From the NCBI RefSeq assembly GCF_009914755.1, contig NC_060938.1: a stretch of DNA of 64,000 bases. One strand, 5' to 3'. A program made the translations under genes and the position numbers. Positions 34,928-39,332 of this stretch are shown here, piece by piece. Under the pieces are notes generated by a model. The model ran no database searches and was not told the DNA's origin. It saw nothing but the letters and a program-made list of their open reading frames with translations. The stretch comes from the human T2T-CHM13v2.0 reference genome, Homo sapiens. How positions within the stretch are numbered: position 1 is the stretch's first letter; each line of letters opens with the position of its first letter.

Positions 34928-35120
34928 TGACTTTGCTTTGGGATTCATTACTTTCCCCAAGAAGGGGAGGTTGCAGCTGCCTTCCTCAAAAATTAATAGT
35001 AGGAAGGGCCTGTTGAAATGGAGGTTGGGGAGAAAGTGGTGGGGGGAGGGACTGGAGGTCGGTGACATCTTCCTCTTCTACTCCTTCCTCTTCCTTGGTC
35101 AGTTCCACCCTGTGCTCTGC
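34928..35120 (-). pseudogene. Decayed clade-A serpin gene, last exon (exon V-like: hinge, reactive-centre loop, serpin signature)
   Basis: Acceptor AG 35122-35121, phase 0; AEHRVELTKEEEGVEEEDVTDLQSL.../+1 frameshift/..PNLHFNRPFLLLIFEEGSCNLPFLGKVMNPKAK; 193 nt versus 192 nt for SERPINA2 exon V; TCA at the position of the SERPINA2 TAA stop. Confidence 0.9.
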
Positions 35121-35566
35121 CTTTGAGGGACCACGGTTCACAGTGTTGATCCCAGCAGAAGTTGTCCCTTCCTCCAGGAGGTGCCACACTGAACCTCAGT
35201 CTGAGCTTGGCCCAGGAGGTCCAGATTCGAGTCCTGGTTCTGTCCTGACTAGAGGCATGACCTAGTGCATCCTGTTCCCTGGTGGAGTCTCAGTTTCTTC
35301 ATCTGCTCCTTCCCTCCCCACCAGGAGTGGGGGTGCTTGCCTTAGCACCCAGCTTGGGAAACCCTTCCCCCATGTCACAGGCCCAGCTCGCTCCTCAGAT
35401 CAGCTGTCCTCAGGACACCAGTGGGTGTTGTAATTTGACATTTCCACCTTTGGCTTCCCCCAGCAGTGGAGCGGCTTCACAGTAACTCCACTGGTGCACG
35501 GTGAATGTGTGAGAAAATGTATGCACTTTTAGAAATGACCGGACACTGGTGGGTTTTAACTTTTAC

Positions 35567-35715
35567 CTTGAAGGCCTTCATGGGTGTGGTTTGCAGAGAA
35601 ATTCTCAAGGCCTGCATGGTAACTGAATATAGCTGAGATGCCCATTTTGGGCAAGAGCTGGTCCAATTGAATATTCCCAGGTAGGGAGAATTTTGGAAAA
35701 TATGGCCTCCTCCTT
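35567..35715 (-). pseudogene. Decayed serpin gene, exon IV-like
   Basis: Pyrimidine tract + AG (35717-35716), phase 2; RRRRPYFPKFSLPGNIQLDQLLPKMGISAIFSYHAG/frameshift/ISLQTTPMKAFK then GTAAAA donor; 149 nt versus 148 nt for SERPINA2 exon IV. Confidence 0.88.
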
Positions 35716-36259
35716 CTGTTCAGGGGAGTGAGAGGAGAAAACAGAGCTGAAATAATGTCATCTACTAAACTGCCCCAGTTAGCAATCTCACTGCAGAATA
35801 ACAGAATAAAATTAACGTCAGCTGTGTTTCCCGAATGTGCCTGCAATACACGGGTCTGTGCCAGGTTCTTTACAAGGAAATTTTGATTCATCCTCACTGT
35901 AATCCCAGGGACTGAGTGCCCCAAATACCCACTTTACAAATGAGAAAATGGAGGGTTGAAGAAGTTGAGAGATTTGCCCAGCAGTTAGGAACATGGTTTG
36001 TAAAAAGCTCAGAGTGAACCCAATGCTGAAGCCTCTTCTCCAGCTGCATTGCTGCTTCTCCAACTGGATGTGGCCTGCTCCTGAGTGCAGTGGAATAGGA
36101 GCATCTCTCTGTCCGTCTGCTTACCTTTGTTCCAACACATAGCCTCGCCCTGTTTTCTTCGCTCTCTAAGCCCAGCCTCGAGGGCCTCAAAGGTCCCAGG
36201 GGAGGATTGAGAGCTCCCTTTTCTTGTGTTTACCTTTTTAAGTCTTACATCAATGGCAC

Positions 36260-36665
36260 ATGATGGGTGCATGCTCTCTTAGAAGTGGAATCTAAAAAGT
36301 CCAACTGTTAGAAGCAGGAGCAGGAAGGGGTGGCCAGGGGCTGGGGAGAGGGAAGATGGCAGAAGTTGATCAAGGGGAAAAAGTTCAGATGAACACATTC
36401 CGGATTTCTACTGTGCACCACGTGCCTAGAAGTATGTATACAGCGCTGTGTGCTTGAAATGTATTAAGAGACTAGATCTTAAGTATTCTCACCATACAAA
36501 CAAAAATGGTACTCATGTGAGGTGATGGATCTGTGAATTAGTTTGATTGTGGGAATCATGTTCAATGTATACACGCATTGAAACAGCACGTTGGACACCT
36601 TAAACATACACAGCTTTTATTTGTGAATTCTACTTCGAGAAAGCTGGAAACAGATAAAAATGAAA
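36260..36665 (+). mobile_element. L1 3' end fragment (L1MA/MB-like)
   Basis: gtggaatctaaaaag...tagatcttaagtattctcaccatac...gtgaggtgatgga. Confidence 0.7.
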
Positions 36666-37124
36666 AGCACAAATTAGAAAACAAAGACAAACCATCTGTG
36701 GGCACAATTTCTGTATGGCAGCCTGATTGTGACTTGTGTCCACAGCCTGGGGGATGACTCACCATTGAGAATTTATCTTCCCAGCTTTAGTTTCCCAACT
36801 GCCTTGGCCATAAGAAAGCGTGCCTTCTTCCCTCTTCCCACCATGACTCACCTAGTAGCTTCCTGGTGGCAGGATGCTGGAGCCTCCTAGCAGCTCCAGC
36901 GTGGATAAACCAAGCAAAGTGGGGTGTGGAGGGGAAAGCTGGAGACTGTCAGCCCTCTCCATGGGAAGGGTGCTTGAGGAGTGTGAGAAAGTCCCATCAG
37001 GATGAGCTCAACCCTCAGATCAAGGCAGCCCATTGCATGTCCGTCAGGCCTTCAGTGGGGAATGAAAACTCAGGACTGAGCAAAGTGCACAGTCCCCACC
37101 TTCTAGAATCCCACAGTCCACACA

Positions 37125-38120
37125 CAGTCTAGAATAGGAGTGACTCTGCCCCCCAGGGAACATCTGGCGATGACTGGGGACATTTTTGGTCATCACTACT
37201 GTGGGGGTGTGTGTGCTGCTGGCATCCAATAGGGAGAACATCCAGGGGTGCCGCTAAACATCCTACAATGCACGGGAAAGCCCCTGCACCACGCAGGACC
37301 GTCCAGCCCGTGATGTGCCTGCAGTGCACGGGAAAGCCCCTGCACCACGCAGGACCGTCCAGCCCGTGATGTGCCTGCAGTGCACGGGAAAGCCCCTGCA
37401 CCACGCAGGACCGTCCAGCCCGTGATGTGCCTGCAGTGCACGGGAAAGCCCCTGCACCACGCAGGACCGTCCAGCCCGTGATGTGCCTGCAGTGCACGGG
37501 AAAGCCCCTGCACCACGCAGGACCGTCCAGCCCGTGATGTGCCTGCAGTGCACGGGAAAGCCCCTGAACCACGCAGGACCGTCCAGCCCGTGATGTGCCT
37601 GCAGTGCACGGGAAAGCCCCTGCACCACGCAGGACCGTCCAGCCCGTGATGTGCCTGCAGTGCACGGGAAAGCCCCTGAACCACGCAGGACCGTCCAGCC
37701 CGTGATGTGCCTGCAGTGCACGGGAAAGCCCCTGCACCACACAGGACTTTCCAGCCCGTGATGTGCCTGCAGTGCACCGGAAAGCCCCTGAACCACACAG
37801 GACTTTCCAGCCCGTGATGTGCCTGCAGTGCACGGGAAAGCCCCTGCACCACACAGGACTGTCCAGCCCGTGATGTGCCTGCAGTGCACGGGAAAGCCCC
37901 TGCACCACACAGGACTGTCCAGCCCGTGATGTGCCTGCAGTGCACGGGAAAGGCCCTGCACCACACAGGAATTTCCAGCCCGTGATGTGCCTGCAGTGCA
38001 CGGGAAAGCCCCTGAACCACACAGGACTTTCCAGCCCGTGATGTGCCTACAGTGCACGGGAAAGCCCCTGAACCACACAGGACTTTCCAGCCCGTGATGT
38101 GATGAGGCTGAGAAACCCTG
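37125..38120 (+). mobile_element. MER20 (hAT-Charlie) DNA transposon internally expanded by a minisatellite
   Basis: gccccccagggaacatctggc...gacatttttgg...ctaaacatcctacaatgcac and terminal gaggctgagaaaccctg match the recalled MER20 consensus. Confidence 0.85.
37262..38101. repeat. 56-bp GC-rich minisatellite (likely VNTR), 15 copies
   Basis: Unit CCTGCAGTGCACGGGAAAGCCCCTGCACCACGCAGGACCGTCCAGCCCGTGATGTG; period 56 (37269, 37325, ...). Confidence 0.98.
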
Positions 38121-39057
38121 AGCTGGAAGAAAGGGCTGGGCCTAGGGACAGAAGGATGGGTGGAGAGAAGGCACTCAGGGCACAGCACGTGGGTCACCAC
38201 TTGGTGATTCGTAATGACAGGGCATCTGGAGGATCTATCAGGAAGCAATGTGATTTAGGTCAGAGCTCCCCAGTCCTTAATATGCTCATGAATCTCCTGG
38301 GATCTTATGAAAATGAAGATTCTGGTTCAGTAGGTGTGCGGTGGGGTCTGAGAGCCTCTGATTCTTACAACTCCCGATGAAGCCAGTGATGTTGGTCACA
38401 GACTGCACATTGAGTAGCAAAGACCTCAAATACTTGAGAAAAGCAAGGAACTTGATCACAGAGTGTGGCCAAGAGGAGAGATGTGCAGATGGCTGGAAAG
38501 TGGCTTTTGTGTAAAGCCTCCTTGAGAAGTGACCAGTAAAGAAGCCCGGTCCCGGCTCCCTCTGAGTTAATCACCAATCATGTTGACTGCATCAGTATAT
38601 GAGCTGGAAAGACAGCTCCTTGGCCACTACCGAACTACAGTCCATGGAACCGTAGCTTGTTGAAAGGTCTTTTGTTAAAATGCCTGCCATGTTCACATGC
38701 TGTTTGGGAAATGCTGAGTAAAGCTAAGTCAGACATTGTTCCATTCTGTACAACTTCTCAGTGCTTTGAAGTGCTAAGGTGAATTGCAAATCTCTCAGAG
38801 GAAGATGCAATGTGACAACATGGTGGTCGTGGTGATGATGATGAGAATGATTTTATTGTGCCAGCACAATTGTTTCCATCTCTTGGAGGAGTCAATGGCT
38901 GAATCCTGTTTGATAATTAGTGCGTGACCTAGTCCCACCCCCTCATGTCATGGTCCAGAAGACCAGAGGGATTTCATCCTCCAGCTGCAGAGACTGCAGA
39001 GGTGGATGTCGAAAGGGTTCCACAGCATGCAGGGGGCAGGGGTAGCTGAGGTTTTAC

Positions 39058-39332
39058 CTTACTGGGAAGGGCTGAGTCCATGTATCAAAATTCTCCTTCA
39101 TCAGTGCCCCTTCTATCTTTCTGACTTTCCCCATGTCAGAAGGAATGAGTACTGCAGTGCCATTGCAGCTGGAGGGCAGCTGGAGGGTGTAACCGTGCAG
39201 GTGATAGAAACACAGGGGCAGGAACCTACCCAGCCGCTGCATTGTGGGCACCAGGATCATGAGACTCTTGCTCATCGAGAAGGGCCTGGTCTCAGTGAGC
39301 TTTGGGTCAAGCAGGGGAGCAGTGCTATTTAC
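39058..39332 (-). pseudogene. Decayed serpin gene, exon III-like
   Basis: AG|GT AAA TAG (G-K-stop in place of G-K-W), then after 4 extra nt [30 protein letters not shown]...LQLPSSCNGTAVLIPSDMGKVRKIEGALMKENFDTWTQPFPV(R); donor AG|GTAAAA at 39057, phase 2; 275 nt versus 271 nt in SERPINA6 and SERPINA2. Confidence 0.88.

What the first reader, a model, noticed from the sequence alone, without database searches (positions are those of the whole stretch)
34928..39332. Hidden third serpin gene between SERPINA6 and SERPINA2: a dead gene, possibly the human remnant of rodent Serpina16
Seen in sequence: three minus-strand exon relics (39058-39332, 35567-35715, 34928-35120) in the correct order, with AG/GT sites and the clade-A phase pattern 1/2/0. 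Their sizes are 275/149/193 nt versus 271/148/192 nt for SERPINA2 in this window. They carry serpin motifs (GK[W], DPKLTE, VPTMQRLG, LQLP..CNGTAVLI, YFPKFSL, MGISAIFS, HFNRPFLLLI, FLGKVMNP). Disablements are W-to-TAG, a frameshift in every exon and loss of the stop codon. The protein is far from both CBG and SERPINA2, so it is an old paralogue, and its introns exclude a retrocopy. Inference: from recollection, rodent Serpina16 (rat epididymal HongrES1) lies between Serpina6 and the Serpina1 genes, so this may be its lost orthologue. I am not aware of a human annotation here but cannot verify that.
Basis: partly seen in the sequence, partly recalled or inferred. Interest (0 to 1): 0.88.

Follow-up and report, generated by a model that had tools for sequence, protein, structure and literature searches.

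The report
Dead human remnant of SERPINA16
Between the SERPINA6 and SERPINA2 genes lies the broken back half of a serpin gene that lemurs, rodents and carnivores still have intact, so humans have lost the sperm-coating serpin studied in rats as HongrES1.

Summary
Three minus-strand exon relics (w39058-39332, w35567-35715, w34928-35120) are colinear serpin pieces; Pfam finds only Serpin in them. They are 27.5-31% identical to the nine human clade-A serpins tested. They are 40-69% identical to a mammalian family recovered with a relic-based profile: lemurs, galago, colugo, tree shrew, carnivores, a mole and many rodents. UniRef names the hamster member "Serpina16 protein".

In trees the relic sits inside this family with 100/100 support. 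Grouping it with SERPINA1 or SERPINA6 is rejected.

Lesions:
- a TAG where 21 of 21 relatives have Trp;
- a net +4 nt in exon 3;
- an Alu inserted into exon 3;
- 1-nt insertions in exons 4 and 5;
- no stop codon at the usual place;
- exon 2, half the coding sequence, missing from the locus and the genome.

It is a unitary, unprocessed pseudogene with no RefSeq annotation. I could not check GENCODE or HGNC. It is a solid but ordinary kind of finding, so interest is moderate.

The parts
39058..39332 (-). Relic of coding exon 3 (275 nt; the canonical 271 plus a net 4 nt). It is open from DPKLTE to PFPV.
   Evidence: Sequence. 55 of 84 residues identical to Propithecus P0091. Family HMM 112.6 bits, E 5e-33. 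Pfam Serpin 24.0 bits at profile 171-252.
39325..39327 (-). TAG stop at the third codon of exon 3, where the family has an invariant Trp (G-K-W). After the TAG come 16 nt where relatives have 12, which shifts the frame.
   Evidence: sequence. W in 21 of 21 relatives, and four residues between W and D/N in all 21.
39334..39644 (-). Alu in sense orientation on the minus strand, inserted about 8 nt into exon 3. Its target-site duplication is w39645-39654 and w39324-39333, 9 of 10 bases identical. Both copies carry the TAG.
   Evidence: sequence. (masked repeat at w39325-39646). A pyrimidine-rich stretch at w39661-39692, just upstream of the 5' copy, fits the end of intron 2.
35716..39057 (-). Intron 3 (3.3 kb), bounded by GT and AG. 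It holds a minisatellite of 15 copies of a 56-bp unit at w37262-38101.
35567..35715 (-). Relic of coding exon 4 (149 nt; 148 plus 1). A 1-nt insertion near w35603 shifts the last 12 codons.
   Evidence: the same break is found with 3 of 4 query proteins, and the fourth, colugo P0118, is itself read in the shifted frame. tblastn identity is up to 71% over 41 aa. Pfam Serpin 21.3 bits.
35121..35566 (-). Intron 4 (446 nt), bounded by GT and AG.
34928..35120 (-). Relic of coding exon 5 (193 nt; 192 plus 1). It carries the acidic hinge EEGVEEEDVTD and a 1-nt insertion in a C-run at w35033-35042. CCA at w34930-34928 stands where lemurs, colugo and panda have the stop codon, so the frame reads on to w34760.
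   Evidence: Family HMM 30.2 and 51.2 bits for the two frames. Pfam Serpin 24.1 bits at profile 341-370.
39655..52511 (-). Single-copy flank upstream of the relic, where exons 1 and 2 should lie. No trace of exon 2 (residues 1-212 of relatives).
   Evidence: 21 of 21 proteins give no colinear hit; only matches at E 16 or worse; a frameshift-tolerant search scores 46-52, against controls at 42-75 and a positive control at 268. One search places the edge of the SERPINA1/A2 duplication at w52512.

Best explanation
This is the unprocessed, unitary pseudogene of SERPINA16, known in rat as HongrES1. An intact clade-A serpin gene once lay here, between SERPINA6 and the SERPINA1 lineage. The gene survives in strepsirrhine primates, tree shrew, carnivores, a mole and many rodents.

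On the lineage to humans it lost function. What remains is coding exons 3-5 with their introns. It cannot encode a serpin, for these reasons:
- exon 2, which encodes the signal peptide and the first half of the fold, is gone;
- the third codon of exon 3 is TAG;
- an Alu sits in exon 3;
- each remaining exon has a frame break.

Shown here: the homology, the lesions, the absence of exon 2 from the locus and the genome, and the absence of any other human member of this family.

Inferred:
- The ancestral product was an epididymal secreted serpin that coats sperm and slows capacitation, as reported for rat and guinea pig.
- It was probably non-inhibitory, because residues at hinge positions P12-P10 are acidic across the family.
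- The loss came after the split from strepsirrhines.
- The TAG predates the Alu, because both target-site copies carry it.
For: Recovery of the family. A profile made of relic pieces on an opossum ZPI scaffold pulled out 7 non-ZPI proteins. A profile of those 7 found 22 rows at 481 bits or more. The next scores were 371 bits and then 365 bits or less. P0115 carries the UniRef name "Serpina16 protein". Mus pahari P0119 is 415 aa with an N-glycosylation sequon at N380, matching the length and one of the three sites reported for rat HongrES1 (passages of PMC2606034).

Identity. Relic to family 40-69%; to every other sequence 36% or less.

Trees. SH-aLRT 100 on 415 columns. Support 100/100 with a stem of 0.73 on the 197 columns that the relic covers.

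AU tests. Relic with the SERPINA1 clade is rejected, p 4e-96. Relic with SERPINA6 is rejected, p 7.6e-6. Relic with strepsirrhines is not rejected, p 0.49.

Uniqueness in the genome. With lemur P0091 as query, the only matches above 55% identity are the relic exons (62%, 70%, 67%). The N-terminal half finds only paralogue exon 2s at 30-35%, apart from one 39% match to the SERPINA13P exon.

Shared acidic hinge.

Linkage in other species. Neotoma A6R68_03470 is the locus tag next to the ZPI gene A6R68_03471, on a 74-kb contig. The Nannospalax member and its ZPI report the same longest-contig length (about 1.23 Mb), so they probably share a scaffold.

RefSeq has no gene here.
Against: - Mouse and rat Serpina16 sequences were not retrieved. 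The name rests on one UniRef label plus the length and glycosylation match.
No call shows it.
- Within the family the relic's exact place is unresolved: a polytomy, and SH-aLRT 88 with colugo and strepsirrhines.
- No haplorhine protein appeared, but the search hides proteins without a named source (6993 candidates were left out). So the timing of the loss is not established.
- The stop-codon loss is ambiguous (4 of 19 relatives read on).
- Each piece alone is below Pfam's cut-off.
- No expression data were available, so residual transcription is not excluded.
Confidence: 0.9

Rival explanations
1. It is a decayed duplicate of a gene that humans still have (SERPINA1/2 or SERPINA6), so it is an ordinary duplicated pseudogene and not a lost gene.
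For: It lies between SERPINA6 and SERPINA2. The nine human clade-A proteins tested hit it weakly by tblastn or blastp.
Against: Identity to the nine human clade-A serpins tested is only 27.5-31%, against up to 69% to lemur proteins. AU tests reject a clade with SERPINA1 (p 4e-96) and with SERPINA6 (p 7.6e-6). The edge of the SERPINA1/A2 duplication lies at w52512, well outside the relic.
Confidence: 0.01
2. It belongs to the Serpina16-like clade but is an out-paralogue, not the strict orthologue of the rodent gene. Under this reading an old duplication was followed by different losses in different lineages.
For: The relic's position inside the family is a polytomy. Mouse and rat sequences and their synteny were not examined.
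Against: The family tree follows the species tree: rodents together, squirrels together, carnivores together, lemurs together. Each species contributes one locus; panda gives two rows, P0120 being a partial. Relic with strepsirrhines is not rejected.
Confidence: 0.05
3. The remnant still does something, for example as part of a non-coding transcript or a regulatory element.
For: RefSeq marks enhancer features at w37120-38675, inside relic intron 3, over the minisatellite. The splice dinucleotides are kept.
Against: RefSeq has no transcript here. The exons carry lesions consistent with unconstrained decay. The enhancer marks lie on the intronic repeat, not on the exons.
Confidence: 0.04

Closest known systems
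Rodent Serpina16 (rat HongrES1, mouse mHong1)
   Same: Same sequence family: 100/100 clade with rodent members, including the one UniRef names Serpina16. Same acidic hinge. Same clade-A exon layout. Lies in the proximal serpin cluster near ZPI.
   Different: The human copy is dead and truncated. The rodent gene encodes a 415-aa glycoprotein secreted in the cauda epididymis that slows sperm capacitation in rat (passages of PMC2606034). It is dispensable for fertility in mice (abstract and passages of PMC10435352).
"Alpha-1-antitrypsin-like" genes of strepsirrhine primates (Propithecus P0091, Microcebus P0092, Otolemur P0094)
   Same: They are the closest relatives of the relic, 55-69% identical over 194 columns. 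Relic with strepsirrhines as one clade is not rejected.
   Different: They are full-length open reading frames of 406-420 aa. Their automatic name is misleading: true alpha-1-antitrypsin (Daubentonia P0129) falls in a different clade.
SERPINA2 and SERPINA13P, the other degenerate serpins of the 14q32.1 cluster
   Same: Unprocessed, with clade-A exon structure, in the same cluster.
   Different: Both are annotated and transcribed. SERPINA2 is a young copy of SERPINA1 with about 80% sequence identity (passages of PMC3691238). The relic has no annotation in RefSeq and no living human counterpart.
SERPINA15P (8q23.3)
   Same: A clade-A serpin pseudogene found only by annotation pipelines (passages of PMC3880077).
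   Different: SERPINA15P lies away from the 14q32.1 cluster, on 8q23.3, with SERPINA6 given as its parent gene. The relic keeps its introns and its ancestral place.
Human unitary pseudogenes of male-reproduction genes (for example Tcam1, Tex16, Tex21, Tssk5 in Table 1 of Zhang et al. 2010)
   Same: The gene is intact in mouse, dead in human at the syntenic place, and active in the male reproductive tract (passage of PMC2864566).
   Different: This locus does not appear in the main text of that paper. A find for "serpin" gave only SERPINB11, and "chr14" gave only Tex21 and GPR33. Its supplements could not be read.

Membership tests
Serpin superfamily (Pfam PF00079) | Significant match to the serpin profile | tested here: met
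   3 of 4 open pieces hit PF00079 and nothing else: 24.0, 21.3 and 24.1 bits at colinear profile positions (earlier cut). Each is below the 27-bit cut-off alone and the sum is 69 bits. A profile of relatives gives 112.6 bits for exon 3.
Clade A (antitrypsin-like) gene structure | Coding exons of about 271/148/192 nt, separated by introns in phases 1/2/0, after a large first coding exon | tested here: met
   Relic exons are 275/149/193 nt with AG/GT sites, against 271/148/192 in SERPINA1. The surplus of 4, 1 and 1 nt is accounted for by the indels seen against orthologues. The large first coding exon is missing.
SERPINA16 / HongrES1 orthologous group | Nests within the group in a phylogeny, apart from all other clade-A genes | tested here: met
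   Support 100/100 on 52 rows by 197 columns. AU tests reject SERPINA1 and SERPINA6 as partners.
SERPINA16 / HongrES1 orthologous group | Direct similarity to the named mouse and rat proteins | tested here: inconclusive
   Mouse D3Z660 and rat HongrES1 were not returned by any search. The link is one UniRef label (P0115), plus Mus pahari P0119 at 415 aa with a sequon at N380, as reported for rat.
SERPINA16 / HongrES1 orthologous group | Conserved position between Serpina6 and the Serpina1 genes | not testable with these tools
   The human position is shown. The rodent order is recalled. Partial support: the Neotoma member has the locus tag next to ZPI on a 74-kb contig, and the Nannospalax member and its ZPI report the same longest-contig length, so they probably share a scaffold.
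Unitary pseudogene | Disabling lesions in an unprocessed gene copy | tested here: met
   A TAG, three frame breaks, an Alu in exon 3 and loss of exon 2, with introns kept.
Unitary pseudogene | No functional counterpart of the same orthologous group in the same genome, and intact orthologues elsewhere | tested here: met
   Genome-wide search with P0091: 99 of 99 candidates scored, and only the relic exceeds 55% identity. Closed regions are not seen. Intact 406-423-aa proteins exist in other mammals.
Inhibitory serpins | Hinge with small uncharged residues at P12-P9, which allows the loop to insert (recalled textbook rule) | tested here: not met
   The relic reads E-E-G-V-E-E-E-D-V-T, and most of the 21 relatives have E/D at the same places. 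The hinge piece gets no Pfam match. This was judged by eye; no assay or model was run.

The most novel reading that the evidence does not exclude
SERPINA16 is not a rodent curiosity. It is an old gene, present at least since the common ancestor of primates, rodents and carnivores, that encodes a non-inhibitory sperm-coating serpin. The lineage leading to humans, possibly all haplorhine primates, discarded it. Its remnant has so far escaped annotation. Odd gene models in ring-tailed lemur, bamboo lemur and colugo hint that the gene is decaying repeatedly in the wider primate group. That would tie its loss to changes in how sperm capacitation is restrained.
Probability: 0.3. Interest if true: 0.5.

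Novelty: new member of a known kind. Interest (0 to 1): 0.4.

Why it matters
- It explains why no human orthologue of HongrES1/Serpina16 is found: the gene is present but dead. Results on this decapacitation factor in rat and guinea pig therefore cannot be carried over to human sperm biology or contraception.
- It adds an unlisted twelfth serpin locus to the 14q32.1 cluster, which PMC3691238 describes as SERPINA1 plus ten others (passages).
- It shows that proteins labelled "alpha-1-antitrypsin-like", "serpin A3-5" or "serpin A12-like" in lemurs, tree shrew, carnivores and rodents form one distinct family.
- It gives a clean locus for dating a reproductive gene loss in primates.

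Tried and rejected
1. Whole-genome PF00079 scan. It did not list the relic, but it scored only 111 of 207 candidates, so it is not evidence of absence.

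2. Looking for a full-length scaffold to carry the relic pieces in a profile:
- The search for related loci on an alignment of nine human exon-2 peptides failed for lack of a conserved stretch.
- A haloarchaeal plasmid serpin aligned the pieces badly and was dropped.
- No processed clade-A pseudogene turned up as a scaffold.
- Heparin cofactor II exons aligned worse than ZPI.

3. MAFFT misplaced short pieces in several trials. I used A7, in which only two residues are displaced. I left out the hinge piece and the ends of exons 3 and 4.

4. Exon 2 was sought four ways, all negative: tblastn with 21 proteins, a family HMM on six frames, a genome-wide search and a frameshift-tolerant alignment with controls. 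Weak matches at w49028-49132 and w51457-51603 (E 16 and 19) and at w43216-43133 and w47192-47052 (E 0.6-0.8) are not colinear. I take them for chance.

5. Literature:
- "serpina16" is held by 10 papers, 9 listed. One of them (PMC11998117) is a false hit for SERPINA1 with a superscript 6.
- No paper holds SERPINA16P or SERPINA14P.
- SERPINA15P is a different locus, on chromosome 8.
- Clone names that I recalled gave nothing useful.
- Searches on the 14q32.1 subcluster and on uterine serpin SERPINA14 gave nothing bearing on this locus.
- Whether SERPINA14 of hoofed mammals is related to this family was not tested. No protein so named was among the 57 hits.

6. Rows left out of the trees. From: P0120 (partial panda duplicate); the fragments P0126, P0143 and P0147; and P0135, P0137-P0139, P0142, P0144, P0148, P0150, P0152, P0154, P0155 and P0157-P0159. 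Of the ZPI hits I kept only P0019, P0066 and P0077.

7. I did not try to date the loss. No primate DNA was available, and protein branch lengths do not discriminate: the relic's end branch is 0.24, against 0.06-0.40 for living relatives.

8. Supplements that I could not see may bear on novelty: the additional files of PMC2864566 and Supplementary Tables 4-5 of PMC10435352, which hold orthologue lists.

Full report
THE OBSERVATION

On the minus strand the window holds three stretches at w39058-39332, w35567-35715 and w34928-35120. They read as the third, fourth and fifth exons of an antitrypsin-like serpin, each with the expected AG or GT beside it. RefSeq annotates nothing between SERPINA6 (which ends at w14620) and SERPINA2 (which starts at w57837).

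Pfam finds only the serpin family in the open pieces, at colinear profile positions. The scores were 12.8, 23.2 and 21.5 bits for the raw ORFs. After the frames were set by orthologues they were 24.0, 21.3 and 24.1 bits for 3 of 4 pieces. Each is under the 27-bit cut-off alone, and the hinge piece hits nothing.

Nine human clade-A proteins, spliced in a script from RefSeq coordinates, hit the relics at the right residues. At E below 1, exon 3 was hit by 8 of 9, exon 4 by 8 of 9 and exon 5 by 9 of 9. Identities were 24-31%, 26-45% and 39-62% (blastp). The genome-wide PF00079 scan did not list the locus, but it scored only 111 of 207 candidates.

FINDING RELATIVES

The protein word search admits only proteins of 0.55-1.75 times the query length, and no relic piece is open for more than 122 aa. 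I therefore built a profile in which the relic pieces are separate rows, aligned to the C-terminal 245 residues of opossum protein Z-dependent protease inhibitor (P0066, obtained; alignment A7).

That search returned 56 proteins from 204 scored candidates (1440 were left out as unnamed). Besides ZPI proteins it gave seven that resemble the scaffold poorly (27-35% identity) yet score 150-245 bits. They come from Propithecus, Microcebus, Otolemur, Lemur catta, Prolemur, Dipodomys and Neotoma.

A profile of those seven returned 57 proteins at E 1e-10 or better from 1007 candidates (6993 were left out). There is a clear step in the scores: 22 rows at 481-827 bits, then 371 (hedgehog), 365 (a ferret fragment) and 341 or less. 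The 22 rows are five strepsirrhines, tree shrew, colugo, panda (two rows), badger, star-nosed mole and eleven rodents. UniRef calls the Phodopus protein "Serpina16 protein". The others carry automatic names such as alpha-1-antitrypsin-like, serpin A3-5 or serpin A12-like. No haplorhine protein is among them.

WHAT THE RELIC IS

Similarity:
- By tblastn, 21 of 21 family proteins hit exon 3 (40-67% identity, E 5e-16 to 1e-30), and 19 of 21 hit the end of exon 5.
- Over the 195 columns that the relic fills, it is 40-69% identical to the family, with Propithecus highest at 133 of 194. It is 36% or less identical to every other sequence, and 27.5-31% to the nine human paralogues.

Trees and tests:
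- In a quick tree of 52 rows and 415 columns, the relic, the 21 family rows and the hedgehog protein form a clade with SH-aLRT 100. The relic sits beside colugo and strepsirrhines at SH-aLRT 88.
- In a careful tree on the 197 columns that the relic covers, the clade has 100/100 support and a stem of 0.73. The relic's place inside it is a polytomy.
- Holding the relic with the SERPINA1 clade costs 117 log-likelihood units (p-AU 4e-96). Holding it with SERPINA6 costs 94 units (p-AU 7.6e-6). Holding it with strepsirrhines costs 0.5 units (p-AU 0.49).
- A rodent "alpha-1-antitrypsin-like" protein on a long branch (Grammomys P0145) falls in the SERPINA1 clade, not here. I guess it may be Serpina1f; this was not tested.

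Genome and linkage:
- Genome-wide, lemur P0091 matches nothing in the human genome above 55% identity except the relic exons (62%, 70%, 67%, and 49% for the hinge frame). Its first 212 residues find only the exon 2 of known paralogues at 30-35%, apart from one 39% match to the SERPINA13P exon. All 99 of 99 candidates were scored; closed regions are unseen.
- The family shares an unusual acidic hinge, E-E/D-G-A-E-E-E-D, which the relic keeps as E-E-G-V-E-E-E-D.
- Linkage elsewhere fits the human position. The Neotoma member (A6R68_03470) has the locus tag next to ZPI (A6R68_03471) on a 74-kb contig. The Nannospalax member and its ZPI report the same longest-contig length, so they probably share a scaffold.

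HOW IT IS BROKEN

A frameshift-tolerant alignment to four relatives, read together with the family alignment, gives these lesions.
(a) The third codon of exon 3 is TAG, where 21 of 21 relatives have Trp.
(b) Between that codon and the D-P-K-L motif the human sequence has 16 nt where all 21 relatives have four codons. This is a net +4 nt.
(c) An Alu (w39334-39644) sits about 8 nt into exon 3. Its flanking 10-nt duplication is 9 of 10 identical, and both copies contain the TAG. The stop was therefore probably there before the Alu landed (inference).
(d) There is a 1-nt insertion near w35603 in exon 4. After it the true frame reads a stretch that matches the lemurs.
(e) There is a 1-nt insertion in a run of C at w35033-35042 in exon 5.
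(f) CCA stands where lemurs, colugo, panda, badger and jerboa have the stop. But 4 of 19 relatives with a C-terminus also read on, and the tree shrew's extension resembles the human read-through. This lesion is therefore doubtful.
(g) Exon 2 is absent. There is no colinear tblastn hit with 21 of 21 proteins. The family HMM gives nothing better than E 16. Frameshift-tolerant scores of 46-52 on w39650-52600 match the controls at 42-75, against 268 for the positive control. Nothing turns up genome-wide.

The interval upstream, to w52512, is single-copy. From there on, the sequence repeats the flank of SERPINA1 (88.6% over 1429 nt). The SERPINA1/A2 duplication therefore did not obviously remove exon 2.

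WHAT IT DID AND WHEN IT DIED

From papers: rat HongrES1 is a 415-aa glycoprotein of the cauda epididymis, and its knock-down hastens capacitation and lowers litter size (PMC2606034, abstract and passages). [quoted passage not shown] That paper's authors found it "conserved only in some vertebrates" (PMC10435352, abstract and passages).

Charged residues at hinge positions P12-P10 argue, by a recalled rule, for a non-inhibitory serpin. This is inference.

Strepsirrhines keep open frames of 406-420 aa, and the relic is compatible with being their sister. The loss most likely falls on the haplorhine or later lineage. I cannot date it without other primate DNA.

WHAT IS KNOWN

The 2013 review of human and mouse serpins lists no pseudogene here and does not mention Serpina16 (PMC3880077, passages). 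The SERPINA2 paper counts SERPINA1 plus ten others in the cluster (PMC3691238, passages). The main text of the unitary-pseudogene survey holds no serpin entry for the chr14 serpin cluster (PMC2864566, find for three terms). No paper in the library holds "SERPINA16P".

I could not consult GENCODE, HGNC, Ensembl or the papers' supplements, so "unannotated" holds only for RefSeq and the searched library.

VERDICT

The locus is a truncated unitary pseudogene of SERPINA16. The kind of thing is well known. The instance seems unlisted, and it widens the known range of the family. Interest is moderate.

Noticed in passing
window 37262-38101: A minisatellite of 15 copies of a 56-bp unit (97% matches) lies inside relic intron 3. 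It creates open frames of up to 350 aa on the minus strand, and RefSeq "enhancer" features at w37120-38675 overlap it.
   Followed up: partly
window 55213-55404 and 56189-56419: Exons 5 and 4 of SERPINA2 are present in this assembly (74% and 61% identical to SERPINA1). They lie outside RefSeq's two-exon model NR_110563.1. This haplotype is therefore not the 2-kb deletion allele described in PMC3691238.
   Followed up: partly
window 59492-60357: SERPINA2 exon 2 matches serpin profiles in two overlapping open frames (w59492-59869 and w59803-60357). This suggests a frameshift within the exon in this assembly.
   Followed up: no
window 52512-54203 versus 62570-64689: A stretch downstream of SERPINA2 repeats a stretch between SERPINA2 and SERPINA1 (88.6% over 1429 nt, plus 81% over 283 nt). 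This looks like the far edge of the SERPINA1/SERPINA2 tandem duplication.
   Followed up: partly
proteins P0096 (Lemur catta), P0098 (Prolemur), P0118 (Galeopterus): Three gene models of close relatives look damaged. Lemur catta ends in the same shifted frame as the human exon 5. Prolemur lacks exon 4. Colugo reads exon 4 in the shifted frames. These are either assembly or model errors, or independent decay of the gene.
   Followed up: no
proteins P0091-P0124 (family alignment): Nearly the whole family carries acidic residues at the hinge, where inhibitory serpins have small ones. The relic's hinge piece gets no Pfam match. The family is probably non-inhibitory.
   Followed up: partly
proteins P0101 and P0012 (Neotoma lepida): The family member A6R68_03470 and the ZPI gene A6R68_03471 carry consecutive locus tags on one 74-kb contig, with no CBG model between them. 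Either Serpina6 is unannotated there or the order differs from human.
   Followed up: no
and one search hit lists: Apart from one tarsier fragment and tarsier and strepsirrhine rows, no primate — and no anthropoid — appears in these two lists. One search did list a short Pygathrix ZPI fragment. So these searches seem to hide most human-like proteins, and the absence of haplorhine family members is weak evidence.
   Followed up: no
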